Shown here one piece after another: positions 2,756 to 62,858 of a stretch of DNA of 64,000 nucleotides. Every line of letters begins with the position of its first letter. Position 1 is the first letter of the stretch. The notes under the pieces are model-generated. The model ran no database searches, was not told the DNA's origin, and was given only the letters and a program-made list of their open reading frames with translations. The stretch is taken from contig NC_086097.1 in NCBI RefSeq assembly GCF_963921235.1, positions 43,402,001-43,466,000 on the forward strand, in the 5' to 3' direction. The stretch is from Mobula hypostoma (lineage: Eukaryota). The position numbers and the translations under genes were made by a program.

Positions 2756-3921
2756 CTAAGGAAGCAAAAAGAAACATTGATCATACTTTTGTTTTTGACC
2801 TCTCACATCCAACTCAATGAACATTCACGAATTCCACACACAACTGTGGAATATTACAAACTACATAATCTGCAAACATTAAAATTCTTTATTTCATACT
2901 GTTCACAAGTACATAATACAGTTTGTGATCAAAAGCCAAGATGTAGTAACCAAGGACTAAAGTGTAGGTGTAAACAATAACAAAGGAATTCTTTGGCAAC
3001 TTTCCTATGGAAAAATTTCTAAGAAGTCATTTAACTGACTTCATGTTTCAGTATTGTTTACTTTTTGCCTGCAAAAAAAATCAAAAAACTTTCCTCATGC
3101 TGCAAGCAAGTAACATAAAGAACCATCTATTTTAAACATTAGCTTGTTCACCTAGATTTTTTAAAAGTATAGGAACATACAGAAACTTTAGTTTTATTAG
3201 GAAAAGAGTTTTGCCAAATATTAGGAAGTGTTTCCATCTATGACATTACATCAAAGTTTTCTTCTATCCACGATTTATGAAAAAGGTTCAAAAACAATTC
3301 AGACTAATCCAAAGAGTCTAGTGTAATGTAAATATAGTCAAATTCTGCTGACAGTATTACTGCATTGGTGATGATGAATACTGATACTACTGAAAGATAT
3401 TTTAATGGAATATATGAGCTGCTATCACTAATAAATATAGGTTTGAACTTTGTGGTATTTTTCCTCCCCCACTTGCATTTTCAGTTCTCACATCAGATTA
3501 GCCTGTGTGCATAATACCTGTGGGTCTTTTCCACCTCTGAAAAGCTAAATATTCCTACATTTACAAAACCAAGTTTTTAGAAAACCAAGATACTATGCAA
3601 AGAGTTTGAGGATTTTAACATCTAGAATTGTTTAACAGTTGTGACAAAAACAGTAAACAGCAGATATCTGTAGTTAAGAGGCCTAAGTGTCCCCACACAA
3701 GTAACCTTGCAAGGTTATAGTTTGCCAATTCAATCAGATATCCTTCAGGATAAACTAAGGGCCACGTTTATGTAATGTGACTACAACAAATTGGTCCAAA
3801 TCTAAATAATACTAATTATTCAGTGGATGCCAAAAACACTAATTAAAGCATTTTCTCATTAAAATAGCTTACACATACCAAGACTTTTTCAAAAATCAAA
3901 AAGAATGTTACATAGCAATTC

Positions 3922-4130
3922 AAGCAACACACACAAAATGCTGGTGGAACGCAGCCGGCCAGGCAGCATCTACAGGAAGAAGCACAGTTAACATTTCGGG
4001 TCGTCCTGACGAAGGGTCTCGGCCCGAAACGTCGACTGTATTTCTTCCTATGGATGCTGCCTGGCCTGCTGCGTTCCACCAGTATTTTGTGTGTTGCTTG
4101 AATTTCCAGCATCTGCAGATTTTCTCGTGT
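3922..4130 (+). mobile_element. Penelope-terminal-repeat-derived fold-back element with hammerhead ribozyme motif
   Basis: Inverted arms (3922-4000 vs about 4021-4100), same sequence as the 3' end of the Penelope element at 20135-20230. 14-bp TSD TTACATAGCAATTC at 3908-3921 and 4131-4144. Confidence 0.85.
4003..4036 (+). ncRNA. Minimal type-I hammerhead ribozyme, intact core
   Basis: GTC|CTGACGA|A|GGGT-CTCG-GCCC|GAAA|C-GTC^|GAC: stem I GUC/GAC, conserved CUGANGA and GAAA, 4-bp stem II, loop-less palindromic stem III (ACGU), GUC cleavage triplet. Confidence 0.75.
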
Positions 4131-6583
4131 TTACATAGCAATTCTATGGCTCAGGCACTCAACCAAGACAATGGTATCATAACATTGGCCATCAATAAGT
4201 TTCGGTTCTCAGTGATGAATTTTCAAAATCTATGGAAGCATATCATTCCACTTTCATGTTGACAGACGCTAAACCATTTCCACCAGTCTGATGATCTTCC
4301 ACAAGTGCTGCACCAACAGTTCAACTTGAACTCTCACGATATTCAAATTAAAATGCAATCCTGCAGACTTAAAACACGATCTTATTTGGTGTTGTCGACA
4401 GGCATGTCCAGTTTAGTATCTGCAAGGGGAAATTTAACATCAAACAATATCCGTAACACCAAAAAAAAAATGCAGTTCCTCCCAATTCGGATAGAAACAA
4501 TGCTGCAGCATTACAGCAGTTGGTACTGTTGAAGACAAAACTGACGACAGATTACATATTCTAGAGCAACAATCAATCAGCTGGAGGAACTCAGTGGGCT
4601 CAGCAGAATCCATGGGTTTGGGGAGGGGGGCGGTGGCAGAAGAGATGGTGGCAAAATTCTGCATGGTAACAGACAGTTGGTATTATTGCCTGACAGATCT
4701 AGCAACCTGGGATCAATACCAGTCTCAAGTGCTGTGTGCGGCTTTCATGTTTTCCCTATGTCCACATTGCTCCCATTCTGTTAGGTTAAATTGATGTCTC
4801 TGTTAATTGTCCCTTGCATATGTGGGTGGTAGGAGAATCAGGGCAGAGAGGATGGCCATGTGAGAAAAACCAGGCTACAGAGGAATCAGATTGATCATAA
4901 CGTCCTCAGCTGACAAAGATTCACTTGGCCAAATTGTCATCTTTAAAGCTGCGAGGGGAAAAAAAGAAATACTTTTGAAACTGTCTTGAAATTTCTCTCA
5001 AAGCCATAAGAGCTCTCTCCCCAGCCCAAAAAAAGAGTAGCAGTACCTCAAACAGTAAAACTGTTTTCCAGTAAAACAAGTTTTTGCTTTTTATTTAGAA
5101 CAGATATTAAATCTTCACACAGACTGAGAAATTTTTAGCAGAAATAAATAAATTATTCCAAGATCTGAATTCATGTAAAATGTCAGAAGCTACAATAGAA
5201 GAGGTGTGTTGCTGGCATTATGGCCAGTGGGTGTTAAGTGCACCCAACTTGGAAAATACAATTTTGTAACACTCCAACAGTTTCAATATGTAAAAAGAAT
5301 CAAAATACAATTTTAGATTGCACTTAGATGTAAATGGGTTACCCAGATTTGAAATGTAGTTTTGGAATAAAGCACAACCCAGGATAAATTCCCGGATGAA
5401 AAAGACTATTATGCACTAGTGACAAGGGAGCAATAACACCATCACAATAACTCATTTGAAAATCTAAAGACCCGTATAGTTTTGTAAAATAATATTCCAT
5501 TCAAAATGCTTCTAGGTAGCTACACTATTCAAACTATTATTCATTTGTAGTCATTAGTACTCCGTTTTGTGATCTATAAAAAGATAAAACTGCAGCACAC
5601 CAAAACCTATAGAATCCTTTTGTTTTTAAACTGAACATTTTCCACAAAGCCATTGAATTACACAAATTGCCTGTGTTGAATCGAGACAAAGCATTGCAAA
5701 CTAATAAAAAGGTCTGGAACTTTCGAGTTTGCTTCCTAAATTTCTCCAACTTTCCCTCCTTTAAGGTACACCTTGATATTTAACTCCTTGACTGAGCTTT
5801 TTAACAATGTATGATGTCTGGTTTAATAAAACTGAGACTCATTGCGTTTTATACACATACACATAGCATTAGACAGTGAATCAAACTTGAATACACATTA
5901 GCTTAAAAGTAGCCTGCTTGGATTTCCTCCAGGTGTTTTGATGTCCTCCCACATCCCAAAGATGTGCATGTTGGTTGGTTGGTTAATTGGCTGTTGTATT
6001 TGCCCCTAGCGTGTAGACAAGTGACAGAATTTGCAAGGCATTCCTGAGAATGTTTTCGTGTTGTACACCTCCATGGCTCTATCTTCAGATGATCAACATG
6101 CCAACCATTTTGTCTTCAAAATATCACCGGAGTTCTATATAACTCTTCTGTGCCTTCCAAATCAAATCATCCACCCCTTCTGCTGACAGAAGTTGTTTAG
6201 GCTAAACCAAAAAGAAATGGCGAGCCTGAGGTCAAAATCTGAACTCAAATTAGTTGGGTAGAATGAAAGAAATATGTAGGATGATTTGCTTACAATTCTG
6301 GACTATGGAGGTGTTCAAACTTCTGTGATACATTCTCAGGGCAGACAGGTATAGCAACATGCTGGGTGGAGAAATACTCCCATCTAAAAATGAATGCAAT
6401 TACTGTATCTTATTCCTTATGACCCTAGTAAACTGCTGCCCAAACCCTTATTATCGGTACACATTAAATACATGGTGCTCACAGAGACAGTATGAAACAA
6501 GCCTCTAAAGAACATTAGTAACTTGTTAAAGAGACATTAGAACAGGCAGGGAACTGAGGGATCCAGACCACATACAGGCAGAT

Positions 6584-6825
6584 TATCATCATCAGATGCC
6601 GTGCCCTGTTTGAGCTTTGACTGCCATGGCCCACACACTCCTGTTTCGGGTCAAGTGGATCAATTCATTGATATTCATTTCCAGTTCTCCGGCTGCTGTC
6701 TCTATCATCATTTGTCTTCCTCTCGCTTTCTTCCTTTCAATCTTTCCCATAATTACTGTGCATTCTAACTCCTCTTTCTTAATCACATGTCCAATGAAGT
6801 TACGTTGCCTTTTCATGATATTGTG
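6584..6825 (-). mobile_element. 5'-truncated RTE-clade LINE 3' end
   Basis: Minus ORF RQRNFIGHVIKKEELECTVIMGKIERKKARGRQ...RNRSVW resembles the RTE C-terminus. Short (GAT)n tail. 9-bp TSD CAGGCAGAT at 6575-6583 and 6826-6834. Confidence 0.75.
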
Positions 6826-7526
6826 CAGGCAGATACACAATTTAAATTAGCCTCATGGTCAGCACAAATACCATGGATCAAGAAGTTTGTTCCTCTGTTC
6901 TGTTACCACCTCTATAGATCTGTTTAAAAGTTTGTGTTTTGATAATATTCACTCTTTTTACCCTCCTACCTCACCGTTATTTCTTAAATACACTGTTTAC
7001 TCGCTAAAAAAGCGCAAGGAATTGATGCATACAACCCAGAATTACAAAACATTCTTGAAGCTAGTGACTTTCAGAAAATTTTGCACATTTCAAGCAGCTT
7101 TATTAATTAACATAGCGCATCGAGTATTTCATATCTGCATATTTGAGGCATGGACAGTTTGGCATTCCAATAATTTCATTTGCCAAGTAGATTCTAACTA
7201 TATAACAACATTTCTATTTCCTTTGCTTAGGTGATATAAATGGCATCAATTATAACATATTGTGAACCGACGTAATAAAACAGCACTGAAAGCAAATACA
7301 AGTAATTCCTTGGAGGACAGACAACACTAGAAATGTACACTGGATCCTTTTCTGATGTGATAAGACTGATGGAATGCAGACAGCCCTTCTATCAGAATGA
7401 AAGGTGTATTTCCCATATTAGAGTAGGGTATAGTACAATGGATTTTAACTTTATATTCATCTTATAATAATGTTTTGTACCTCACAACATGGCCTCATCA
7501 TTTCTCAGAAATATCAACCTTAATTA

Positions 7527-7965
7527 CGAGGGGTGATTGATAAGTTCATGGCCTAATGTAGAAGATGAGTTATTAATTTCAAACTTTCTGCATTTTCACT
7601 CAAAGAGTTGAACTGCACGTGCACGTAACGAGAGCTGTATAACTCATCTCCTTCTACCTTAGGCCACGAACTTATCAATCACCCCTGCTGCAGTCTACCT
7701 GGAGGTCCACGACGCTCTCGTTACATGCATGTGCAGGTCAACTCTGAGTGATAATGCAGAAAGTTGGAAGTTAATAACTCATCTCCTTCTACCTTAGGCC
7801 ACCAATTTATCAATCACCCTTGCTGTGGACCACTTCTACAAAGACGGGATCCGTATGCTCCATGACCACTGGACTAAGTGTGTATATGTAGGGAAAATAA
7901 ATGTGCTGGGTTTCCTAAAATTGACTCCTTCTACCTGAGGCCACGAACTTCTCAATCACCCCTCG
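7527..7965 (+). mobile_element. Non-autonomous mariner element (MITE-like)
   Basis: TA TSDs at 7525-7526 and 7966-7967. TIRs CGAGGGGTGATTGATAAGTTC / GAACTTCTCAATCACCCCTCG. Remnant transposase C-terminus FYKDGIRMLHDHWTKCVYVG near 7834-7893. Confidence 0.85.
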
Positions 7966-8074
7966 TATGTTCATGCTTAGATCAAAGTACAGCACTATCA
8001 TTGAATCCATATTAGTAACAACAAGAACATCTACAAAGTGAACAGCTTCATCACATTTCATAGTATGAAGTTCA

Positions 8075-8240
8075 AGACAAAAGAAAATCTGCAGATACTG
8101 GAAATCCAAACAACACACACAAAATGCTGGAGGAACTCAGGTCAGGCAGCATCTGTGAAAAAGAATACAGTCAATATTTCAGGCCGAGACCCTTCATCAG
8201 GACTGAAGATGATGAGCAGTCAGAGTAAGGTGGTGGGGGG
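8075..8240 (-). mobile_element. Penelope terminal repeat fragment with hammerhead motif (8168-8205)
   Basis: Minus strand CAGTC-CTGATGA-A-GGGTCTCGGCCT-GAAA-TATT-GACTG followed by the family tail ending GCAGATTTTCTTT. Confidence 0.75.
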
Positions 8241-9099
8241 AATGGAGGGAAGTTCAAGATATTGGTAGCAGTCACCTAAACAAAAAGGCACAAGCCAAGA
8301 AAAGCAACTACAAATAATCAAAGCTGGCATCGGAACATATTGTTACGTGACTGCACAAGACAGAATTCTTGAAATAACTGAGAACCAAATGGAATAATGT
8401 TTTACTTTGTATGCGATCCTAAATACTAACAATGATATTGGAATTAACTTGCTTGAAGGAAATCATAATTTGAAATATTTTAATTTATGTTAAAAATCAG
8501 GTCAAAAGTAGTTCTTCACCACCGGGCATTTTTCCCCATTCTTTACACACCTGTAGAAGTTAAAATAGACAACTGGATGATAGTAATTACACTTTCTATT
8601 TGCTTTACTTGCCAAGAAATCAGACTTAGCAAAATAAATCTAGAGGTTACTTTGATATTACAGCTTAGGGATAAAATGTATATTTACACTCAATCATAAA
8701 GGAGCAACAACACATGCTGCAGCATATAAAACAGGACTCAACATCCAGCACCCTATTTTGCTTGAGATCCTAGAGTCTGTGCCTTTTAACAATGATGCTG
8801 CAAACATAGTCAAAACTTTCTACCTGTCAAACATCTTTAAATGCAACACAACTACACGAGTTATTTTTTATATTACCACCAAATTCAGTAATGTAACTCA
8901 AGCTCAATTTTAATCAAAATAACTACTTGCTTAGAAGACACACAAAACCTCAGCTAACAGGATGAATTTCTCATTTGTTATGACTCAAGAGGTAGCCAGT
9001 TAGCCCATCACATCATGCTGGCTCTCAGATTAATACCATCAGTCCAATTTGCCCACTTTTTTTTCCTGTAACACATTCCTTCGCATACACATCTGCCCC

Positions 9100-15449: not shown

Positions 15450-16700
15450 TTAAAAAGTTCAAAGTTCAAGGTAAAATTTATTATCAGAGTACATACATGT
15501 CACCACACACAACCCTGAGATTCTTTTTCCTGCAGGCATACTTAGCAAATCTATACAACAGTAACTGTAATGGGATCAAAGAACAACAAACTGTGCAAAT
15601 TCAAATACAAATAAAAAGCAATAAATAACAAGAGCATGAAATAACAACGAAGAGTCCTTAAAGTGAGGCCATCAATTGTGGGAACACCAGAAATAGAATG
15701 AGTGTAGTTTTCCTCGTTTGTTCAAGAGCCTGATGGTTGAGGGGTAGTAACTGTTCTTGAACCTGGTGGTACAAGTCCTGAGGCTCCTGTACCTTCTACC
15801 TGATGGCAGCAAGAAAAGAGCACAAACAAGAGAAAATGTGCGGATGCTAAAAATCCAAGCCACACACACAAAATGCTAGAGGAACTCAGTAGGCCAGGCT
15901 GTACCCATGGAAAAGAGTGCTGTCGACGTTTTGGGCTAAGACCCTTCATCAGGACTGATCATGTCCTGATGAAGGGTCTCGGTCCAAAATGTCAACTGTA
16001 CTCTCTTCCATAGATGCTGTCTGGCCTACTGAGATCCTCCAGCATTTTGTGTGTGTTGCTGAGAAAAGAGCATTGCCTGGGTGGTGAGGACCTTCAATGA
16101 TGGATGCCGCTTTTCTATAGCAATGTTTCATGTAGATGTGCTCAATGGTTGTGAAGGTTTTACTCGTGATGTACTGGGCCGAATCCATTACCTTTTGTAG
16201 GAGTTTCTGCTCAAAGGCATTGGTGCTCCCATGATGCAGCCAGTCAGCAGACTTTCCACCACACATCTATAGAGGTTTGCCAAGGTTCTTGATGACGTGC
16301 CAAATCTCTGCAGACTCCGGGGGAAGTAGAGACACAGTTGCGCTTTTTTGCATGATATGTCCAGGACAGGTCCTCTGAGGTAGGAATTTAAAGTTACTGA
16401 CATTCTCCACCTCGGATCCTCCAATAAGTACTGGTTCATGGACTCCGGTTTCCCTCAAGTCTACAATCAGTTCCTTGGTCTTGTTGACATTGTGTAAGAG
16501 GCTGTTGTTATTACACCACACAGCTAAATTTTCAAATCTTCCTCCTATAAGCTGATTCATCACAACCTTTGATACAGCCCACCAAAGTGGTGTCATCAGC
16601 AAACTTGTATATGGTGTTCAAGCTGTAGTTAGCCACATAGTCATAGATGTAAAGCAAGTAGAGAAGGGGGCTAAGCACACATTCCTGTGGTGCTCCTGTG
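15450..16700 (-). mobile_element. Rex1/Babar LINE 3' part, interrupted by a hammerhead hairpin insertion
   Basis: Minus strand GAPQ..VLSPLL, HNVNKTKELIVD, LLPSGRRYRSLRTCTTRFKNSYYPSTIRLLN; (TTTGAAC)-like tail at about 15450. Confidence 0.8.
15823..16061. mobile_element. Fold-back Penelope-terminal-repeat element with two back-to-back degenerate hammerheads
   Basis: Long inverted repeat centred near 15958. 11-bp TSD AGAAAAGAGCA at 15812-15822 and 16062-16072. Both cores have GAAA changed to AAAA. Confidence 0.8.
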
Positions 16701-18550: not shown

Positions 18551-20892
18551 CAGTAGATTCCAGTTAATTGGGACACAATGGGACCAGTATATTTTGGCTC
18601 AATTAAGTTTCATAGAAATTGTTAAAAAGGTATTAAAAAACCGCTCATTTCTGCATACCTTGACACTGTTTTATTCACCCCTTGTTCAATCCCTTCCCAC
18701 CTATGTTCGTGACACTTCTCACGCTCTGGATTTTTTCAATGATTTTAAGTTCCCCGGCCCCCACCGCTTTATTTTCACCATGGATATCCAGTCCCTATAT
18801 ACCTCCATCCCCCACCAGGAAGGTCTCAAAGCTCTCCACTTCTTTTTGGATTCCAGACCTAATCAATTCCCCTCTACCACCACTCTCCTCCATCTAGCAG
18901 AATGAGTCCTTACTCTTAATAATTTCTCCTTTGGCTCCTCCCACTTGCTCCAACTAAAGGTGCAGCCATGGGCACTGGTATAGATCCCAGCTATGCCTGC
19001 CTTTTTGTTGGCTTTGTGGATCAGTCCATGTTCCAAGCCTATACTGGTATCCGTCCCCCACTTTTCCTTCGCTACATCGACGACTGCATTGGCGCTGCTT
19101 CCTGCACGCATGCTGAGCTCGTTGACCTCATTAACTTTGCCTCCAACTTTCACCCTGCCCTCAAATTTACATGGTCCATTTCTGACACCTCCCTCCCCTT
19201 TCTTGATCTTTCTTGATCTCTGAGACAGCTTATCTACTGATGTCTACTATAAGCCTACGGACTCTCACAGCTACCTGGACTATTCCTCTTCCCACCCTGT
19301 CTCTTGCAAAAATGCTATCCCCTTCTCACAATTCCTCCGTCTCCGCCGCATCTGCTCTCAGGATGAGGCCTTTCATTCAAGGACGAAGGGGATGTCTTCC
19401 TTTTTAAAAGAAAGGGGCTTCCCTTCCTCCACCATCAACTCTGCTCATCCCCTTACACTTCCTCCCTTACCACCATTCAGGACCCCAGACAGTCCTTCCA
19501 GGTGAGGTGGCACTTCACCTGTGAGTCGGCTGGGGTGATATACTGCGTCCGGTGCTCCCGATGTGGCCTTCTATATATTGGTGAGACCCGACGCAGACTG
19601 GGAGATCGTTTTGCTGAACACCTACGCTCTGTCTGCCAGAGAAAGCAGGATCTCCCAGTGGCCACACATTTTAATTCCACGTCCCATTCCCATTCTGACA
19701 TGTCTATCCATGGCCTCCTCTACTGTAAAGATGAAGCCACTCTCAGGTTGGAGGAACAACACCTTATATTCCGTCTGGGTAGCCGCCAACCTGATGGCAT
19801 AAACATGAACTTCTCTAAGCTCTGTTAATGCCCCTCCTCCTGTTCTTACCCCATCCCTTATTTATTTATTCCCTTTTCCCCCCTCACTTTTTTTCTCCCT
19901 CTGCCCCTCTCACATTTACTCCATGCCTGCTCTCCATCTTCCTCTGGGTTCCCCTCCCCCTTCCTTTCTCCCTAGACCTCCTGTCCCATGATCCTCTCCC
20001 TTCTCCAGCCTTGTATCCCTTTTGCCAAACAACTTTCCAGCTCTTAGCTCCATCCCTCCCCCTCCTGTCTTCTCCTATCATTTTGGATCTCTCTCCCCTC
20101 CCCCTCTCAAATCTCTTACTATCTCTTCTTTCAGTTAGTCCTGACGAATGGTCTCGGCTCAAAATGTCGACTGTGCTTCTTCCTATGGATGGTGGGCCTG
20201 CTGCATTTCACCAGCATTTTGTGTGTGTTACTTTATCTGAGTAACAGATTATGTATTTAAATGAAATAAGGAACAAATTAGAACATTACCAATACTATCA
20301 AACTGCATATTAGTTCCTAATAGTCAACGACGAAGAAGTTCATCTATGCAATGAACAAAATCAGTGCAGACACCTCAAGCAGAGAATGGACTTCTTTCAT
20401 ACAATGCTAGCAATGATTGCATCCTCCGAATCTTTACTTTCATTGTAACATTCAAGCTGATTGTCGATGCCTTCAAATTCTTTGTAGTTCCTAAGTTGTT
20501 AAAATAGTGAAATTGTTTCATTTTCACTCCCAGCTGTTTCTGGCATCTCCAAGTCTGAATGCTTGAAACAGATGTGAACAAAACAGTTCTGAATTGTCTT
20601 CATGCTTATTTTTCACCAACTATCAGTGACAAAAATCACTGCTTGTTCAGCAACAACACATGCAATTGATGCTATTTTAAAACTGTCCACTCTAAAACTG
20701 GTGCAGTGCCTAATGCAATTGAAGCTACTTAGAAACCGTTCAGCAACAGTCTCTTGCCCCAATTAACCAGCAATTTTCCCAAATAAATGAACAGAATCCG
20801 GCTATTTTCTCAATTAGTTTTGTTCTTTAAGAGTTACCCCAAATAAGCGGTTGCCCCAATTAACCGATGGCCCAATTAACCACGATCTACTG
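18551..20892. mobile_element. Non-autonomous pogo/Tigger-like DNA transposon split by a Penelope insertion
   Basis: TA flanks (18549-18550, 20893-20894). Imperfect 22-bp TIRs CAGTAGATTCCAGTTAATTGGG / CCCAATTAACCACGATCTACTG. Subterminal CCCAATTAACC repeats. Confidence 0.75.
18645..20230 (+). mobile_element. 5'-truncated Penelope-like retroelement (Neptune-type): RT + GIY-YIG + terminal repeat with hammerhead
   Basis: RT motifs FTMDIQSLYTSIPH, MGT...PSYA.LFVG, FLRYIDD, PFLD. GIY-YIG FTCESAGVIYCVRCSRCGLLYIGETRRRLGDRFAEHL (19502-19828). Pyrimidine-rich 3' region and degenerate hammerhead at 20137-20172. Frameshifts and stops present. Confidence 0.92.
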
Positions 20893-21649: not shown

Positions 21650-22036
21650 GTTAACACATAGCAAATGCTGGAGGAACTCAGCAGGGCAGGCAGCATCTAT
21701 GGAAAGGAATACGATAGTTGATGTTTCGGAGTGAGACTCTTCATCAGGACTGGAATGGAAGAGGTAAGGAGCCGGAGTAAGGTGGTTAAGGAGGTGAAGG
21801 GGTACAAGCTAGAATACGATAGGTGGTGAAGCCAGGTTTTTTTTGGGGGGGAGGAAGAGAATGAAGTGAGAAAGGGAAGTGATAGGGGGGAAAAGGTAAA
21901 GGGCTGAAAAACGAATCTGATAGGAGAGAAGAGTGGACCATGCGAGAAAGGGAAGGGTGCACCGGGGGAGGTGATAAGCAGGTGAGGAGCCACAGTTGAG
22001 AACGAAAGAGGAGGGGAGAGAAATTACCAGAAGTTG
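21650..22036 (-). mobile_element. Penelope 3' end fragment, part of a local duplication
   Basis: Family tail, degenerate hammerhead (about 21716-21752) and purine-rich segment, colinear with 24730-25065. Confidence 0.75.
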
Positions 22037-24729: not shown

Positions 24730-25890
24730 TAACACACAGCAAATGCTGGAGGAACTCAGCAGGTCTGGCAGCATCTATGGAGAGGAATAAACAGTTGCTG
24801 TTTTGGAGCGAGACGCTTCATCAGGACTGGAAAGGAAGAGGTAAGGAACCAGAGTAAGAAAGTGGGGGCAGGGGAGGAGAATGAAGTGAGAAAGGAAGTG
24901 ATAAGGGGAAAAAGGTAAAGGGCTGAAGAAGGAATCTGATAGGAGGGGAGAGTGGACCATGCAAGAAAGGGAAGAGTGCATCAGGGGAGGTGATAAGCAG
25001 GTGAGAAGCCTAAACTGAGAATGGAAGAGGAGGAAAGGGGGAGGAGCGAAAAATCACCAGAAGTTTAAAAAAAGCGATATCCATGCCTTCAGATTGGAGG
25101 TTATTCAGATAGAATACAAGGTGCTGCTCCTCCATCTTGATAGTGGCCACATCATGGCCATACAGGAGGCCATGGACCAACAGGGCAGAATGAGAATAGG
25201 GACTGGAATTAAAATAGTTGACCACCGAGAAATCCTGCTTGTTGTGGATGGAACAAAGATGCTCAACAAAGTGGTCCCCAAATCTACGTCAGGTCTCAGC
25301 AAAGTAACTGAGGGCACATCGGGAGCACGAGATACAGTAGACACCCCAAGTTTGCGGATGAAACATTGCCTTACCTGGAAGGCCCTGTATGGAGGTGAGG
25401 GAGGAAGTGAATGGGCTGGTATAGCTGTTCTTCCACATGCGTGGATACGTGCCAGGAGTGAGATCAGTGGGGAGGAACGAATGAACAAGAGATTCACAGA
25501 GGGAGTGATCCCAGTGGAAAGCTGAGAGTCAATAGGGGATTAAGATGCGTTTGGTGGTAGGATCCCATTAGAGATGGCAGAAGTTGTGGAGAATGATATG
25601 CTGGGTTTGGAAGCTCATAGGGTGGTAGGTGAGGAGAAGAGAAATTCTATCTCCGTAAAGGCAAAGGGAAATAGAGTGAGTGTGGATGTCCAGGAAATGG
25701 AAGAGAAGCAGGTGAGAGCAATATCAATGCTAGAGGAAGGAAAACCCCGTTCTTTGGAGAGAGGGCATCTCTGATGTTCTGGAAAGGAAAGCCTCATTCT
25801 GGGAACAGATGTCGCTGAGACAAAGGGACTGAGAAAAGGCATTTTTACAGGTGACAGGGTGGGAAGAGGTAGTCAAGATAGCTGTGAGTG
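24730..25890 (-). mobile_element. Degenerate Penelope-like element (RT C-terminus, GIY-YIG, terminal repeat)
   Basis: Minus ORFs HGLLYGHDVATIKMEEQHLVFYL and KERGFPSSSID match the plus-strand element at 19380-19828. Confidence 0.85.
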
Positions 25891-26527: not shown

Positions 26528-26658
26528 CAAACACGAGAAATTCTGCAGATTCTGGAAACCTAAAGCAATATGCACAAAATGCTGGAGGAAGTCAGCAGAT
26601 CAGGAAAGGATTCATAGAAATGAACTGTCAACATTTCGGGCTGAGACCCTTCTTCAGA
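26528..26658 (-). mobile_element. Penelope terminal repeat fragment with hammerhead core
   Basis: Minus strand CTGAAGA-A-GGGTCTCAGCCC-GAAA-TGTT-GACAG plus the family tail. Confidence 0.7.
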
Positions 26659-31809: not shown

Positions 31810-32440
31810 TCCTTGTTGAGGCAAATTTCAAAAAACTGCAGAGATTTGTGGGCACAGCTTGGCACACCTTAGAAACCAGACTTCCCTCTATGGACTCTGT
31901 CTACACTTCTTGCTGCCTCTAGCTAATCAAAGATTCCCACCCACCCCAGAAATTCTCTCTTCTTCCCCCTCCCAATGGGCAGAAGATACAAAGCCTGAAA
32001 ACGTGTACCACCAAGCTCAAGGACAAACTCTATGTCCATCGTTTAGAAGCACAAGAAGATCTGCAGATGCTGGAAACCCAAGCAACATACACAAATTGCT
32101 GGAGGAACTCGGCAGGCCAGGAGCGTCTATGGAAAAGGTCTCAGCCCGAAACATCGACTGTTCACTCTTTTCCATAGAGGCTGCCTGGCCTGCTGAATTC
32201 CTCCCGTATTTTGTGTCCATTGTTATAAGACTTTTGAATGGTTCCCTTGTACGATAAGGTAGGTTCTTGACCTCATAATCTACGTCATTATGACCTTGCA
32301 CCTTGCTTTCTACCTGCACTGCATCTTCTCTGTATTGTACCACTTTATTCTGTGCTCTGTTGCTGTTGCACCTTTTCCTACATCACTCTTGTAAGGAATT
32401 GATCTTGTGGACGGTGTGCAAGACAAGTTTTTCGCTGGAT
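31810..32440 (+). mobile_element. Rex1/Babar 3' end with nested hammerhead-family hairpin (about 32045-32213)
   Basis: CTCCCAATGGGCAGAAGATAC (LP.GRRY) region and 3' UTR similar to 46200-46600. Nested inverted family repeat flanked by TGTCCAT(C/T)GTT. Confidence 0.7.
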
Positions 32441-34630: not shown

Positions 34631-35082
34631 ACAGTGAAACCATAAAAAATAAACATACTGCTTGTAACATTTGGGCCATATCACATTTGCAAAAGAATAT
34701 GTTAACTGTTTTGGTTTTGTTGTTAACTTCTCATACAGCACTATCATTTGCATAACAAGCTGATAAATCTGTGCTAAGTCTTTCATTGATAATGGAATGT
34801 TTCACAACCAGTAACAACAGGTTGCAATTACTAGTTAGTACTGCTAACTTGTAGACAAGATTAGAAATATAAATGATAAAGATCAAACTCTGAATTATAC
34901 GTGACAGTAAGTATTCAGTTGTGTGACATGGAGTCATAGAGTTATACAACACAGGAAATAGGCCTTTCAGCCCAACTTTTCATGCCAGCTGACTTGCCTG
35001 AGCTAGATCCATTTGCCTGTGTTTCCGCATATCCTTTAAACCTTTCCATCAGCAGCATAGAAGTTGGCAGCAATCGTTATTG

Positions 35083-35214
35083 AAGAAGGGTCTTGGCTTG
35101 AATTGCGGACTGTTTATTCATTTTCATGGGCGCTGCCAGACCTGCTGAGTTCCTCAAGCATTTTGTGTGTATGTTGCCTAGATTTCCACCATCTGCAGAT
35201 TTTCTCATATTTAT
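35083..35214 (+). mobile_element. Penelope terminal repeat insertion, degenerate hammerhead
   Basis: Family sequence. 11-bp TSD AAT(C/T)GTTATTG at 35072-35082 and 35215-35225. Confidence 0.7.
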
Positions 35215-46600: not shown

Positions 46601-47968
46601 ACCATCTTCTCTACTGATCTTTCAGGTTCAAATAAATGTTTTTGTCAAAGTTTTTTTTAGCTTTACTCCCTCAGCATTGGCAGCAAGACTTCTCACCTTA
46701 TTTGTCTCTTAAACTTGGGACAGTTCATACCACCATCATTTTCACTTTCTATTCCCCTTTAATCCTTCCTTCTATTACGCTTCCCAAAACACAGTCACAT
46801 TTTTAACTTTACACAGCAAGGGAAAGACCATGTGACAGTTGGAGACACAGCTGACAGGAGGAAATAGACCCCCAACAGGGCTGTTATGGGCTAACTACCC
46901 ATAACAGCAGGCTCCATCATCTTGTCAGGGCACAAGAGCCACCCTCACTTAGCTACGGAAAGTTTAAAAAGTACTTTTTAAGAGTACTTAAAAAGAGCGG
47001 GGGCTCAAGAAGACTGACTGACCTCCTGGTAACAAACCTTGGCATGGACACGAGAATGAATCAAGAGAGTGGCCTCCTTGTCACCACTCCAAGCCCAGTG
47101 CCAACATCGAGAGTGCCGACTTACCATAGGGATTGAAACATTAAGTCCTAGTAGCTCTACATCTACTGCTCTTAAAATTTCAATCACAGTGAAGTTATTT
47201 CTTGTCGTTTCCTCGTATTGTTATAGATTGAAACACCTGCTCAATATTACTTTCTGCCAAACTTTTCCAATGCAACAAGGCTATTCTCTAGCTCTTGGTC
47301 TGGTCAACCACGCCATCACCTCCACCTTAGATGTCCTGGTAGTTACAATAATCATTCTTGCTAAATCTGACTGTTCTTAGTACAACCTATAACTACATAA
47401 TAAACTTCACATACTTGCTGTCAATATTGCTGCTTACTTCATCTCCATAACTATAACAACTTCTATCTACTTTTGAGCTGTGGAAACACTCAACCATCTC
47501 TCTGCTCATTCTTTAGCAAGCTGTTCCAATGTAGTCCTATCAAGTTTCCCTTATTCGACTTGAGCTAGTTGAAAAGGTATGTCTGTATTCGCTCATCACC
47601 CTTGTGCTTTTTGATCCAAATTGCCACCTGATTAAGCAAATTCTCTGTTTTACAACTATTACCTTTGTTTTCAAGTTATTCCATGGCTTCACCGTTCCTT
47701 ATTTTGATAATAATTGCAGACATTGTCAACATTATTTTCAGATAGAATGGAGATGATACACTCCTTTCCAAAGAAAGTGATTTCTATTACTCCTTTCAAT
47801 TTAATATACTGCATTTGGTGCTCACCATGTAATGTAATATCCTCTAAACTGAGCATCTCATTTCATTTCACAAGCGACCTTGTTGCTAGTACTGTACTTT
47901 AATTAAGCAATACTTTAATCTCTGTCTTCCGCTTCACAACTGTTCCAATGAAGCCTGGTATAACAGTA

Positions 47969-48054
47969 ACCTCGAGGAAATCTGCAGATGCTGGAATTTC
48001 AAGCAACAGACATAAAAGTTGCTGGTGAACGCAGCAGGCCAGGCAGCATCTATA
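47969..48054 (-). mobile_element. Short Penelope-tail insertion
   Basis: Family tail only. 12-bp TSD GGTATAACAGTA at 47957-47968 and 48055-48066. Confidence 0.8.
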
Positions 48055-48922
48055 GGTATAACAGTATCTTCTTTTTCACCTAGACCTGTTAAAGCCCATA
48101 GCATTGATTCAACAATTTCAGAAAACCAGCCTTTGCATGGAGTATGTATTAGTCAATTCTAACAAAAGGATATCAGCTTGTATCATTAACTCGTTTTCTC
48201 TTCGCACAAATACTTGAGTACAACTGCCGAGTATGTCCAGCATGCTTTAATTTCAGATTTCCACCAAACAAGGAATTTTACATTTTTTTTACTCTCGTTT
48301 AGCGATTAGTACCCTTAGGTCATTTAGTCTCTCCTTACCAAATTTATTATCAAAAATAAATCTTCCTCTACCCACCCCATTCTCTGCAACTCCAAAACAT
48401 TGATTTTATTTATATAAGTTTTCCTAGTTCCAATGAAAGATCATCAGTCTAAATCGTAAACTCTGCTCCTTTCTTTGTTCTTGCTGCCTGATCTGATGAA
48501 TCTTTACAGCTTTTTCTTTTAAATCAGTTAAGCATTTTTCTCGCCACAGATGCTGACCGACGAATATATGCAGCATTTTCTGGTTTAAATCTGTCTCTTC
48601 TTCAAAACACTGGTCGGCCTCTGATGGAAAGCAACAACTACACCTCTAGCCTTCGCTACCGCTGTACCTTCAAAGAATATTCCAGAGCCTGAAATAAAAG
48701 TAAGTGAAAGCGCGTTTACCGGTCGAGGCGTTCCCCCTCCCTCCCCTTCAGCTCGACAGCGGCACCGCCTGCAACCTCCCTGTCTTTTCATCATTCATGG
48801 GAACCGGGCTGCCGGCCAGAAGCTCGTCCTTCCTGAGGTAATCGCATCAACTCCAGCCAGCACGCCGGGATGAATCTCGTTTCCCGGCCTTAACCAGGAA
48901 AACGCCTTTTACAGTATAATAG

Positions 48923-49102
48923 AGACAAGAAATTCTGCAGATGCTGCAAATCCAAAGCAACGCACAAAACTGCTGGAGGAACTCAGCAGCGATCTTTTCT
49001 GGTCCTGAGAAGGGGTCTCGGCCCGAAACGTCGACAGTTTATTCATTTCGATAGATGCTGCCTGACCTGCGGAATTACTCCAGCATTTTGACTGCATTGC
49101 TT
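48923..49102. mobile_element. Fold-back Penelope-terminal-repeat element with near-intact hammerhead (49002-49035, +)
   Basis: Inverted arms; GTC-CTGAGAA-G-GGGTCTCGGCCC-GAAA-CGTC-GAC. Confidence 0.75.
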
Positions 49103-50278: not shown

Positions 50279-55989
<5,711 letters not shown>

Positions 55990-61318: not shown

Positions 61319-61965
61319 ATATTAGTGGCCACTTCATTGGGTTCATTCGTACATCTGCTTGTTAATGCAAATATCTAATCAACCAATCATGTGGTAGCAA
61401 CTCAATGCATAAAAGCACGCAGACATGTGCAAGAGATTCAGTTGTTCAGACCAAACATCAGAATGGAGAAGAAATGCGATTTAAACAACACACACCAAAG
61501 TTGCTGGTGAACGCAGCAGGTCAGGCAGCATCTCTAGGAAGAGATACAGTCGACGCTTCAGGCCGAGACCCTTCGTGAGGAATGCGATTTAGGTGACTTT
61601 GATTGGGGAATGAATGTCGGTGCCAGACAGGGTGGTTTGAGTATCTCAGAAACTGCTGATCTCCAGTGCTTTCACACACAACCGTCTCTAGAATTTAAAG
61701 AGAATGGTGCGTAAACCAATAAAACATCCAGTGAACGGCAGTTCCGTGGGCGAAAATGCCTTGTTAATGAGAGAGGTCATAGGAGAGTGGCCAAAATGGA
61801 TCAAGCTGACAGGATGGAGACAATAACTCAAATAACCACACATTACAACATTACAAGCAGAAGAGGATCAATCTCTGAACACACAACACTTCAGACCTGG
61901 AAGTCGTGGGCTACAGCAGCAGAAGATGTTGGTGTCTGTATGTATGATAAGATGGTCACTGAGTG
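61319..61965 (+). mobile_element. Non-autonomous Tc1-like DNA transposon containing a nested hammerhead-family insertion (61484-61580)
   Basis: TIR-like AGTGGCCACTTCATT...GATGGTCACTGAGTG followed by TA; transposase N-terminal remnant. Nested insert has the 11-bp TSD AATGCGATTTA (61473-61483, 61581-61591). Confidence 0.75.
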
Positions 61966-62734
61966 TAGAAGTTGACTCTCTACTTAAAGGACTGTAAATA
62001 AAAGAAAAACATGGAGCTCTGAAATAAAACCATCTTAGAAGACTATATGATTCCAGCATGAGAGATAACAATAGAACTCAAGAAGATAGTACAGTGACAA
62101 TAGCATGTTCAACAATGTAACAGAATACAAAGTGCAGGCAACACCCAGGGGAAAAGGGTGACTGCATTTGTAGAAAAAAACATATTGTGATTTTCTTTAA
62201 TGTCAAAAAACGTGAGTTAGAAATAATTAAATGTGCTGATTCATTTACTTTTTTTTCACGTTCTGTGAAAGTGAATTTTATTCTACAACTCTAATTTTTA
62301 TGTAGTGATTTTAAAATTCTGTAATGACAAATTTCCATAAATTGAATGGCTGTAACTCGGAGTAATGCATGGTATAAAACATATTGGTACTCATATTGCA
62401 ACAGTTATGTACCCTTTACTATTGAGAAATAAGAAAGAACATTACTTAGAAGTACCCAACACAAATTACAGTTGAATTTGGTCTTCTCACAGTCTCAGGT
62501 CTCTGTAGCAGTGAAGGTGTATGTGAAGTCTCACTCATGATGGGATGTCTACTGATATATGGCAAATTTCTTTATTGGGAACGTCACAAAATATCAGAAC
62601 AGGGAGATTATGCTGGAATGATATGAACCACCAGTTTGGTCTTAGCTGATGTCACAAAGTACAATTCTGGTCATGAGGATGTTACTGAGATGAATACAAA
62701 AGTAGACTGAGGAAAGAAAGAATGGATAGAGTGA

Positions 62735-62858
62735 AGGGTTTTGGCCGGAAACGTCGACTGTACTTCTTCCCTAGTTGCTGCCTGGCCTGCTGAGTTCCTC
62801 CAGCATTTTGCATGTGTTGCTTGGATTTCCAGCATCTGCAGGTTTTTCTCTTGTTTGT
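62735..62858 (+). mobile_element. Penelope terminal repeat insertion starting inside the hammerhead
   Basis: AGGGTTTTGGCCGGAAACGTCGACTG plus family tail. 10-bp TSD GATAGAGTGA at 62725-62734 and 62859-62868. Confidence 0.8.

What the first reader, a model, noticed from the sequence alone, without database searches (positions are those of the whole stretch)
4003..4036. Minimal hammerhead ribozyme hidden in the window's dominant short repeat family
Seen: the recurring motif (CA)GTC-CTGANGA-A-GGGTCTCGGCCC-GAAAC-GTC-GAC(TG) folds as a type-I hammerhead. It has stem I CAGUC/GACUG, the conserved CUGANGA and GAAA boxes, a 4-bp stem II, a GUC cleavage triplet and a loop-less stem III made of the palindrome ACGU. 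This copy is intact. Related cores occur at 8168-8205(-), 15922-15955(-), 15963-15996(+), 20137-20172(+), about 21716-21752(-), about 24792-24829(-), 26626-26658(-), about 32128-32150(+), about 35081-35112(+), 49002-49035(+), about 61547-61580(-) and 62735-62760(+). Established: minimal hammerheads with palindromic stem III occur in terminal repeats of Penelope-like elements and are thought to cleave as dimers. Inference: about one family copy per 5 kb here would imply a very large genomic ribozyme population in this lineage. I cannot tell whether this family has been described.
Basis: partly seen in the sequence, partly recalled or inferred. Interest (0 to 1): 0.85.

Follow-up and report, generated by a model that had tools for sequence, protein, structure and literature searches.

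The report
Penelope-element minimal hammerhead ribozyme relic
The flagged 34 bases are a copy of the small hammerhead ribozyme motif that Penelope-like jumping genes carry near their tail, a known kind of element that is hugely amplified in this vertebrate genome, and this copy is a dead, cut-short insertion.

Summary
Window 4003-4036 reads GUC-CUGACGA-A-GGGUCUCGGCCC-GAAA-CGUC-GAC. All 13 listed sites are copies of one repeat family. Only the flagged copy keeps every core feature, and 4 of 13 keep both boxes.

The repeat is not a free-standing ribozyme family. It is the 3' tail of a Penelope-like retrotransposon (PLE). In eight near-full-length copies the motif lies about 300 nt after a reverse transcriptase plus GIY-YIG endonuclease frame. 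In one copy it occurs twice, in direct pseudo-LTRs 3.5 kb apart.

The motif matches the minimal hammerhead of PLEs described in 2014 (PMC4209133), so it is a new member of a known kind.

Genome counts are large: 88,531 box-intact motifs and 161,762 within 3 mismatches.

Nothing here shows cleavage:
- No Rfam hammerhead hit.
- No covariation.
- The predicted folds prefer an inactive rod.
- The dominant young lineage has G.U at 10.1/11.1.
- No truncated copy starts at the cut site.

The window copy is a single insertion between 12-nt target duplications, with helix I cut to 3 bp.

This scan found the same family before on other windows of this genome.

In passing, 144 close head-to-tail motif pairs turned up, many with units of only 36-40 nt.

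The parts
3908..3919 (.). Left target-site duplication TTACATAGCAAT
   Evidence: The same 12 nt occur at 4131-4142.
3920..4002 (-). Inverted, 5'-truncated arm of the same PLE tail. It runs from the pseudo-LTR end inward to about the 3' strand of helix II and has no tail extension.
   Evidence: blastn self-match 3917-4104 on opposite strands at 81%. The start relative to C3 is +14. It causes the miRNA-like hairpin hits in Rfam.
4003..4130 (+). Direct 5'-truncated PLE tail copy: hammerhead, rest of the pseudo-LTR, and a tail extension of about 30-35 nt (GAATTTCCAGCATCTGCAGATTTTCTCGTGTTT).
   Evidence: The tail extension is homologous to the first 40 nt of the unit body in L042 605-644.
4003..4005 (+). 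Remnant of the helix I 5' strand (GUC). It pairs with GAC at 4034-4036.
   Evidence: The full 5-bp helix is seen in other copies.
4006..4012 (+). Core box CUGACGA (C3-A9)
4013..4013 (+). Unpaired A between A9 and G10.1
   Evidence: This feature is listed for PLE min-HHRs in PMC4209133.
4014..4025 (+). Helix II hairpin GGGU-CUCG-GCCC, closing pair G10.1-C11.1
   Evidence: Helix II is paired in 94.7% of cells in 66 distinct copies.
4026..4029 (+). Core box GAAA (G12-A15.1)
4029..4032 (+). Palindrome ACGU (15.1, 15.2, 16.2, 16.1). It could form helix III only with a second copy.
   Evidence: The dimer idea comes from PMC4209133.
4033..4033 (+). C17. The predicted cleavage is 3' of this base.
   Evidence: Position read off by hammerhead numbering. 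Not tested.
4034..4038 (+). Helix I 3' strand GACUG
4131..4142 (.). Right target-site duplication TTACATAGCAAT
8082..8204 (-). Older family copy. Both boxes are kept, U11.1, AUAU in place of ACGU, and helix I is CAGUC/GACUG.
15824..15956 (-). Family copy with G12>A. It forms a head-to-head pair with the next copy.
15963..16060 (+). Family copy with G12>A. It starts at -3.
19446..20233 (+). Longer 5'-truncated PLE copy (about 790 nt) with G12>A in its hammerhead at 20141-20168.
21653..21751 (-). Older family copy. The boxes are kept but helix II and the palindrome are disrupted.
24731..24846 (-). Older family copy with G12>A.
26529..26657 (-). Copy that starts at C3 (no helix I 5' strand). The boxes are kept and the palindrome is broken.
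32047..32216 (.). Head-to-head pair of truncated tails. The hammerhead is cut inside CUGANGA.
35081..35213 (+). Copy that starts at U4. The core is broken.
47966..48056 (-). Tail fragment without the hammerhead (starts at +41).
48925..49102 (.). Inverted fragment plus a direct copy whose core has G8>A.
51581..51623 (-). Fragment holding the tail extension only.
61479..61581 (-). Copy of the young-lineage type with G5>C and A14>G.
62733..62856 (+). Copy cut inside the motif. It lacks CUGANGA.

Best explanation
Window 4003-4036 is a minimal type-I hammerhead motif (min-HHR) of the kind carried in the pseudo-LTR of Penelope-like retrotransposons. The 'dominant short repeat' is the last roughly 130 nt of such an element, in 5'-truncated copies that are often paired head to head.

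Shown: in near-full-length copies of this genome the motif lies about 300 nt after a frame of about 1,000 codons. [quoted passage not shown] The motif is about 90 nt before the unit's 3' end. In one copy it is present in both direct pseudo-LTRs, 3.5 kb apart.

Shown: the window copy is one insertion event. It consists of an inverted truncated arm plus a direct arm with the PLE 'tail' extension, between 12-nt target duplications.

Inferred from the published model, not shown here: in a transcript with two motifs the ACGU palindromes pair to make helix III, and each core then cleaves after C17 (window 4033).

The window copy itself is most likely inert, because helix I is cut to 3 bp and the inverted arm pairs with the core. 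I put about 0.9 on the identity and about 0.4 on the motif being used as a working self-cleaver in the element's life cycle.
For: - Motif: every core position and the spacing are present.
- Features that PMC4209133 lists as not imposed by its search are also present: an extra nucleotide between 9 and 10.1, G10.1-C11.1, and a palindromic 15.2-16.2.
- Carrier element: homology runs more than 1.5 kb upstream in several of 30 genome copies.
- The upstream frames hit GIY-YIG and RVT_1 weakly.
- Their 45 homologues (best E 1.5e-102) carry RVT_1, DUF8422, HTH_animal and GIY-YIG.
- A PLE-type protein finds 56 scored matches of 165,433 first-look candidates. Fifty of the 56 have no stop inside the match.
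- In 7 of 8 fetched near-full-length copies a box-intact motif starts about 300 nt after the frame.
- L042 has direct repeats 1-604 and 3515-4120 (99.2% identical) with motifs at 513 and 4029.
- PLE hallmarks named in PMC8557442 are all seen: 5' truncation, partial tandems, adjacent inverted truncated copies and a 30-40-nt tail at one end.
- Abundance: 7,665 exact copies, 88,531 box-intact and 161,762 within 3 mismatches. The controls gave 0, 35 and 0.
- Contigs from runs of other coded organisms depart from the reference at L042 4025 and 4061, the two outer edges of helix I.
Against: - No Rfam hammerhead model matches. There were 0 hits at gathering score in the window. None appeared at E<=10 on the window copy or on a young copy with full helix I. 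None appeared at E<=1 on natural tandem arrays.
- There is no covariation. 87.4% of cells are paired, against 87.4% in shuffles, and the covariation score is 0.145 against 0.148.
- Nearest-neighbour folding prefers a rod in which GACG (5-8) pairs with CGUC (15.2-17). The figures are -15.9 against -9.5 kcal/mol for a monomer and -11.8 against -7.5 for an array unit.
- The dominant intact variant has U at 11.1, giving a G.U pair instead of the G-C that the 2014 paper calls highly conserved. It has 43,352 exact copies against 7,665 for the C form.
- None of 26 truncated copies starts at the cut site.
- For an Anolis PLE, core mutants did not affect insertion in vitro and no RNA-seq ends were found at the cut (PMC11167929, passages).
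- PMC8557442 calls the function of the motif unclear.
Confidence: 0.9

Rival explanations
1. The block is hammerhead-shaped but serves mainly as a folded RNA handle for the element's reverse transcriptase, for binding or as a template-switch point. Catalysis would be weak or dispensable. This rival concerns function, not identity, and can be true together with the best explanation.
For: - Truncated copies pile up at the 5' edge of helix I. Eight or nine of 26 start within -4..+1, where about 1.4 would be expected if starts were spread evenly over 115 positions (my arithmetic).
- None of those copies starts at the cut site.
- There are 144 close head-to-tail motif pairs. In 40 of the 100 listed, the junction joins the two edges of helix I almost directly.
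- The most successful lineage has G.U at 10.1/11.1.
- An opposite-strand joint at L042 4026/4068 occurs in two runs.
- Published work reports that core mutants do not affect insertion in vitro (PMC11167929).
Against: All invariant core nucleotides are kept in the young lineage, which a mere handle would not need. The same Anolis study reports protein-dependent cleavage that responds to C3G, G8C and the double mutant. Fungal and plant PLE hammerheads cleave well (PMC4209133).
Confidence: 0.3
2. The roughly 130-nt units that begin at the hammerhead's edge are a separate non-autonomous element, retrozyme-like or SINE-like, copied by the PLE machinery. They would not be random truncations of full elements.
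For: The 5' boundary is discrete, at -4..-2, in several copies. Head-to-tail dimers of the short unit with periods of about 110-135 nt exist: 70 pattern hits, control 0. A 2026 preprint argues that animal retrozymes derive from PLE pseudo-LTRs (10.64898/2026.07.22.740005, abstract and Results).
Against: The short units are the same sequence as the tails of long copies and share their subfamily variants. Truncation points also fall at many other positions. Tandem short units are rare beside 88,531 motifs. No promoter or separate 5' part was found.
Confidence: 0.1
3. The match is a chance resemblance inside a hairpin-forming repeat, for example a miRNA-like or MITE-like inverted repeat.
For: Rfam gives only hairpin miRNA models on the locus (mir-3926, 35.5 bits, E 5.6e-05), and no hammerhead model matches.
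Against: The hairpin is the head-to-head junction of two copies within one target duplication. Most copies have no inverted partner. The miRNA scores are far below the gathering scores (35.5 against 82). Fifteen fixed core bases at correct spacing recur 88,531 times against 35 in the reversed control, always in the PLE tail.
Confidence: 0.02

Closest known systems
Minimal hammerheads (min-HHR) in the pseudo-LTRs of metazoan Penelope-like elements (Cervera and De la Pena 2014, PMC4209133; parts 1-2 of 4 read)
   Same: It shares the CUGANGA/GAAA core, the absence of a helix III hairpin, palindromic 15.2-16.2, the extra nucleotide before G10.1 and a short helix I of 4-5 bp. It also shares the location in both pseudo-LTRs, the wide scatter as single motifs on truncated copies, and pairs on opposite strands 100-700 bp apart.
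   Different: Helix II here is 4 bp (7-8 bp in the Schistosoma families). Copy number is about ten times the roughly 4,000-9,000 given there for coelacanth and Xenopus. The copies are very uniform, whereas that paper stresses extreme variability. The dominant lineage has G.U rather than G-C at 10.1/11.1.
PAc, a Poseidon-type PLE of Anolis carolinensis, and its hammerhead (Frangieh et al. 2024, PMC11167929; passages read)
   Same: It has the same RT plus GIY-YIG element with a pseudo-LTR hammerhead. The genomic 'tail' is explained there by internal initiation of reverse transcription. There too, no molecule ends were found at the cut site.
   Different: In PAc the frame starts inside the hammerhead, at helix II. 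Here the first ATG of the long frame lies 61 nt after the cut, at the pseudo-LTR/body junction. The linker CX4CX2C suggests a Neptune- or Nematis-type clade rather than Poseidon. That clade call is an inference from PMC8557442 passages; no tree was made.
Animal non-LTR retrozymes (Cervera and de la Pena 2020, PMC7229834, passages; Li et al. 2026 preprint 10.64898/2026.07.22.740005, abstract and Results)
   Same: Both are type-I hammerheads acting as dimers, and both are linked to PLE pseudo-LTRs. Head-to-tail arrays of motif-bearing units do exist in this genome.
   Different: The window copies are single or head-to-head, not tandem. Retrozyme hammerheads are canonical, with helix III and loop contacts, and their units are 150-450 bp (51-972 bp in the preprint). 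The arrays here have units of 36-67 nt or about 120-130 nt and are few.
Canonical type-I hammerheads with a weak helix III, such as the axolotl repeats (up to 120,000 copies by a section heading in PMC7229834). Newt satellite and Schistosoma repeats are named from recall.
   Same: They share the catalytic core, and an unstable helix III means that two copies are needed for cleavage.
   Different: Those motifs keep a helix III hairpin and are found by Rfam-type models. This motif has none and gives no Rfam hit.

Membership tests
PLE minimal hammerhead (min-HHR) | Core boxes CUGANGA and GAAA and an NUH cleavage triplet at the right spacing | tested here: met
   Window 4006-4033 matches with 0 mismatches. 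There are 88,531 genome matches against 35 in the control.
PLE minimal hammerhead (min-HHR) | No helix III hairpin; positions 15.2-16.2 palindromic, so that two copies can pair | tested here: met
   ACGU at 4029-4032. The two pairs are standard in 87.1% of cells of 66 copies.
PLE minimal hammerhead (min-HHR) | Unpaired nucleotide between A9 and G10.1 | tested here: met
   A4013. Column 19 of A1 is nearly invariant A.
PLE minimal hammerhead (min-HHR) | Conserved G10.1-C11.1 pair closing helix II | tested here: inconclusive
   Met in the window copy (G4014-C4025). The commonest intact genome variant has U11.1 (G.U): 43,352 exact copies against 7,665.
PLE minimal hammerhead (min-HHR) | Helix I of 4-5 bp | tested here: inconclusive
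   Family copies have UAGUC/GACUG or CAGUC/GACUG (helix I 81.8% paired). The window copy keeps only GUC/GAC.
PLE minimal hammerhead (min-HHR) | Located in the pseudo-LTRs of a Penelope-like element | tested here: met
   L042 has motifs at 513 and 4029 inside direct repeats that flank a 1,043-codon frame. The motif is present in 7 of 8 near-full-length copies.
PLE minimal hammerhead (min-HHR) | Self-cleavage after position 17 | not testable with these tools
   No run on record as RNA was available. Contigs cannot show molecule ends.
Canonical type-I hammerhead (Rfam hammerhead models) | Match to a curated covariance model, including a helix III hairpin | tested here: not met
   No hammerhead hit at gathering score, at E<=10 or at E<=1 on arrays.
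Endonuclease-bearing Penelope-like element (the carrier) | Single frame with RT followed by a C-terminal GIY-YIG endonuclease | tested here: met
   RVT_1 at residues 534-683 and GIY-YIG at 946-1020 of 1,043, both below Pfam's cut-off. ADKG, VIY...YIG and CX4CX2C are visible. Homologues and Atlas clusters carry RVT_1, GIY-YIG, HTH_animal and DUF8422.
Endonuclease-bearing Penelope-like element (the carrier) | Pseudo-LTRs from partial tandems, frequent 5' truncation, adjacent inverted truncated copy, and a 30-40-nt tail at one end | tested here: met
   set against the description in PMC8557442.
Animal non-LTR retrozyme | Head-to-tail tandem units, each with a hammerhead | tested here: not met
   The window copies are single or head to head. 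Tandem forms exist elsewhere in the genome but are rare: 70 and 144 pattern hits.
Animal non-LTR retrozyme | Expression as circular RNA | not testable with these tools
   No RNA reads were available.

The most novel reading that the evidence does not exclude
The hammerhead domain, closed by helix I, folds in the RNA template while the element is being copied and acts as a turning point for the reverse transcriptase. This would explain why truncations, head-to-head junctions and tandem duplications all break at the two edges of helix I. It would also explain how repeated passes around the domain give hammerhead-only micro-arrays with 36-40-nt units. In a transcript of such an array, neighbouring ACGU palindromes can form helix III in cis, giving a complete type-III-like hammerhead. 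The arrays could therefore be the smallest retrozyme-like units known, shedding self-cleaved or circular RNAs of about 38-40 nt.
Probability: 0.15. Interest if true: 0.6.

Novelty: new member of a known kind. Interest (0 to 1): 0.3.

Why it matters
The finding itself is ordinary in kind. Hammerhead motifs in Penelope-like elements have been known since 2014, and this scan has already met this family on many other windows of the same genome.

Three things give it some value:
- Scale. This 3.5-Gb genome holds 88,531 box-intact motifs. A 2020 paper reports up to 120,000 canonical hammerheads for the roughly ten-times-larger axolotl genome.
- Youth. The lineage is very young and uniform, and 50 of 56 scored matches to a PLE-type protein have no stop inside the match. 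It also carries a natural G.U variant at a pair regarded as conserved.
- Footprints. Junctions sit at the edges of helix I and none at the cut site.

Together these make the genome a good natural system for the open question of what the hammerhead does for these elements.

Tried and rejected
- Rfam at gathering score and at permissive E-values, on the window, on a young copy and on natural arrays, gave no hammerhead model. It gave only hairpin miRNA models, caused by inverted copies.
- Covariation on 70 copies (66 distinct) was no better than shuffles. The copies are too alike, and they decay neutrally after insertion, so the test has little power.
- Thermodynamic folding of monomer, homodimer and array unit did not give the hammerhead fold as the minimum.
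- RNA evidence: no RNA holder was listed. The four runs laid were contigs of unknown kind, which cannot show molecule ends or expression. Table 6 listed no places where many molecules begin or end, which says nothing for contigs.
- A larger random sample of the genome could not be fetched. The 5'-end statistics therefore rest on 36 fragments.
- Lunse, Weinberg and Breaker 2017, on PLE hammerheads cleaving as dimers, is not held. I know of it only from recall and from titles in reference lists.
- Literature searches gave 0 papers for 'ribozyme' + 'Penelope-like' + 'cartilaginous'. They also gave 0 papers for five 14-17-nt strings of the motif. Supplements were not searched, and the supplementary alignments of PMC4209133 may hold related fish sequences.
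- The idea that an intron ends at helix I could not be tested. It rests on the polypyrimidine-CAG run just upstream. None of the 15 joints listed ends there, but 350 more were not shown.

Full report
**What is at the coordinates.** One search shows window 4000-4039 as gtcGTCCTGACGAAGGGTCTCGGCCCGAAACGTCGACTGt. In hammerhead numbering:
- 4006-4012: CUGACGA (C3-A9).
- 4013: an extra A.
- 4014-4025: helix II, GGGU-CUCG-GCCC, with G10.1-C11.1 as the closing pair.
- 4026-4029: GAAA.
- 4029-4032: the palindrome ACGU.
- 4033: C17.
- 4034-4038: GACUG.

In this copy only GUC (4003-4005) is left of the 5' strand of helix I. The pattern CTGANGA-N13-GAAACGTC with up to 2 mismatches occurs 8 times in the window. 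The mean over 100 dinucleotide shuffles is 0.31, and none reaches 8.

**The listed copies.**
- One (4003) has every feature.
- Four keep both boxes: 4003, 8168-, 21716- and 26626-.
- Four have G12>A: 15922-, 15963+, 20137+ and 24792-.
- Three have other core changes: 35081+, 49002+ and 61547-.
- Two are cut inside the motif: 32128+ and 62735+.

Many changes are CpG transitions, as expected for old methylated vertebrate repeats (sequence).

**What the repeat is.** A blastn of 3800-4300 against the window shows about 15 places. The unit runs from 4003 to about 4130. The window lies in a 3.48-Gb assembly of 200 contigs.

In 30 close genome copies, homology stops at different points upstream and in several runs more than 1.5 kb. 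That is the pattern of a 5'-truncated retroelement. Upstream frames give weak Pfam hits to RVT_1 and GIY-YIG. The frame with GIY-YIG has 45 homologues (best E 1.5e-102) of 570-1,030 residues that carry RVT_1, DUF8422, HTH_animal and sometimes GIY-YIG.

One such protein, searched against the genome, gave 56 scored matches out of 165,433 first-look candidates. All were 54-55% identical. Fifty of the 56 had no stop inside the match, and open frames reached 1,054 residues.

Eight of these places were fetched.
- Copies are 97-99% alike.
- In 7 of 8 a box-intact motif starts about 300 nt after the frame.
- In L042 the stretch 1-604 repeats at 3515-4120 (99.2% identity), with motifs at 513 and 4029.
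- The 1,043-codon frame shows ADKG, reverse transcriptase, a CX4CX2C linker and VIY...YIG.

This is the architecture of an endonuclease-bearing Penelope-like element with pseudo-LTRs. The linker suggests the Neptune or Nematis type, as described in passages of PMC8557442. That is an inference, because no tree was made.

**The window copy as an insertion.** The same 12 nt, TTACATAGCAAT, stand at 3908-3919 and 4131-4142. Between them lie two arms.
- An inverted arm at 3920-4002, which ends at the pseudo-LTR end without a tail.
- A direct arm at 4003-4130, which adds about 30-35 nt homologous to the first 40 nt of the unit body (L042 605-644).

An adjacent inverted truncated copy and a 30-40-nt tail at one end only are listed as PLE signatures in PMC8557442. 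[quoted passage not shown]

The inverted arm explains why Rfam returns only miRNA-like hairpin models on this locus. It also explains why the predicted fold of the window copy buries the core in a long hairpin.

**Comparison with the known family.** Cervera and De la Pena (PMC4209133, parts 1-2 read) defined minimal hammerheads without helix III in the pseudo-LTRs of PLEs from invertebrates, fishes, coelacanth, Xenopus and reptiles. They list four features that emerged beyond their search descriptor:
- consensus families;
- a nucleotide between 9 and 10.1;
- G10.1-C11.1;
- palindromic 15.2-16.2.

The last three can be checked on a single copy, and the window copy has them. The family has helix I of 5 bp (UAGUC/GACUG in young copies, CAGUC/GACUG in older ones). 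The motif is therefore a member of a described kind.

I found no paper on this family or lineage. 'Ribozyme' + 'Penelope-like' + 'cartilaginous' gave 0 papers, and five strings of the motif gave 0. Supplements were not searched.

**Numbers.**

| Pattern searched in the genome | Matches | Reversed control |
|---|---|---|
| 31-nt pattern of the window copy, exact | 7,665 | 0 |
| Same pattern, up to 3 mismatches | 161,762 | 0 |
| Two boxes plus ACGUC at correct spacing | 88,531 | 35 |
| Exact variant with U at 11.1 | 43,352 | 0 |

In 80 kb of randomly placed stretches I found 20 tail fragments, 3 of them with intact boxes. That is one per 4 kb, like the window. It extrapolates, by my arithmetic, to the order of 0.9 million fragments.

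For scale, the 2014 paper gives about 4,000 and 9,000 min-HHRs for coelacanth and Xenopus. A 2020 paper has a heading giving up to 120,000 canonical hammerheads for the axolotl. A 2026 preprint gives a maximum of 14,255 'active' retrozymes.

**Does it work as a ribozyme?** Nothing here shows it.
- Rfam's hammerhead models do not match the window copy, a young copy or natural arrays.
- On 66 distinct copies the proposed pairs are standard in 87.4% of cells. That compares with 16-44% when partners are slid, but with 87.4% in shuffles. The covariation score is 0.145 against 0.148. The structure fits the sequence, but there is no compensatory change.
- Folding prefers a rod in which GACG of the 5' box pairs with CGUC at the cut site.
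- The most abundant and youngest lineage has G.U at 10.1/11.1. In contigs of another coded organism, C is the majority letter at that place (76% in X21), so U is probably derived.
- Among 36 tail fragments in the window plus the random sample, 26 are true truncations. None starts at the cut site (+28 from C3), while 8 or 9 start within -4..+1, where about 1.4 would be expected.

Published work points the same way. The Anolis PLE hammerhead needed protein to cleave. Its mutants did not affect insertion in vitro, and no RNA-seq ends were seen at the cut (PMC11167929). PMC8557442 calls the function unclear.

Three things favour function.
- Every invariant core base is kept in a lineage that multiplied to tens of thousands of copies.
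- The block is shared by subfamilies whose flanks differ on both sides.
- Contigs from other coded organisms leave the reference exactly at L042 4025 and 4061, the outer edges of helix I.

**Passing observation.** Head-to-tail motif pairs exist.
- With 85-115 nt between GAC and the next GTCC there are 70 hits.
- With 2-32 nt there are 144 hits, control 0.
- In 40 of the 100 listed close pairs only 2-6 nt lie between the two, so the unit is 36-40 nt and is essentially the hammerhead alone. These occur at 36 or more places, with recurring junctions.

| Locus | Unit length (nt) | Copies |
|---|---|---|
| L057 | 40 | 5.1 |
| L058 | 62 | 8.0 |
| L059 | 61 | 6.7 |
| L060 | 40 | 3.6 |
| L061 | 40 | 4.8 |
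| L062 | 67 | 4.0 |

All six fetched arrays sit at the 5' end of a direct tail copy. Five are next to an inverted arm, and one lies between target duplications.

Truncations, inverted junctions and duplications thus share break points at the edges of helix I. This suggests that the domain is folded when the reverse transcriptase switches templates. That is an inference, and I give the bolder version of it about 0.15.

**Earlier notes of this scan.** After I had reached the above, one search showed that 68 notes on this genome fit the same words. The eight shown describe the same motif on other windows, and their follow-ups reach the same verdict. One notes the pile-up at the ribozyme's edge, and one notes the lack of any sign that the cut is used. 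They agree with my results but are not independent evidence. No note mentions the micro-arrays.

**Verdict.** The kind is already described, so this is a new member of a known kind. The window copy is an inert relic. Interest is modest (0.3). It rests on the scale, the youth and uniformity of the lineage, the natural G.U variant and the junction footprints.

Noticed in passing
Own genome, e.g. L057 763-966, L060 521-664, L061 434-626 (40-nt units); L058 551-1046 (62 nt); L059 426-834 (61 nt); L062 471-741 (67 nt): There are short head-to-tail arrays whose unit is little more than the hammerhead itself. The genome holds 144 close pairs (control 0), and 40 of the 100 listed have units of 36-40 nt. 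All six fetched arrays lie at the 5' end of a truncated tail copy. Published retrozyme units are 51 bp or longer.
   Followed up: partly
Window 4003, 15956, 15963, 26657, 35081, 61581; L050 1051 and 2273: The 5' ends of truncated copies and head-to-head junctions pile up at the 5' edge of helix I (-4..+1 from C3). This holds for 8-9 of 26 truncated copies, and none starts at the predicted cut site.
   Followed up: partly
Own genome; L042 4048: The commonest intact variant has U at 11.1 (G.U instead of G-C): 43,352 exact copies against 7,665 for the C form carried by the window copy. In contigs of another coded organism, C is the majority at that place.
   Followed up: partly
L060 566-697, L061 403-502: The Rfam model MIR6136 matches head-to-head motif pairs at 48-53 bits (gathering score 99, E about 6e-08). 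The consensus of that miRNA family resembles an inverted pair of this motif, so the family may itself derive from such a repeat in another organism.
   Followed up: no
L042 3990-4025; window 8205-8225(-), 21752-21775(-): The 5' strand of helix I is directly preceded by CTTAC, a pyrimidine run and CAG, which looks like a 3' splice site. In Drosophila virilis Penelope an intron ends at the 5' end of helix I (PMC4209133). No RNA data were available to test this here.
   Followed up: no
L042 595-605 and 4111-4120: The first ATG of the long frame is formed by the last bases of the upstream pseudo-LTR, one base before the repeat/body junction, and is preceded by an in-frame TGA. A unit without an upstream partial copy would lack this start. 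In the Anolis PAc element the frame also starts in the repeat, inside the hammerhead.
   Followed up: partly
L042 3730-4010: The roughly 280 nt between the stop codon and the hammerhead are almost pure pyrimidine on the sense strand and vary more between subfamilies than the motif and the 60 nt after it.
   Followed up: no
L031 and L034 (contig C52, about 147 kb apart): These two loci are about 90-94% alike over most of their 6.4 kb, far beyond the element. They look like a segmental duplication that carries the element.
   Followed up: no
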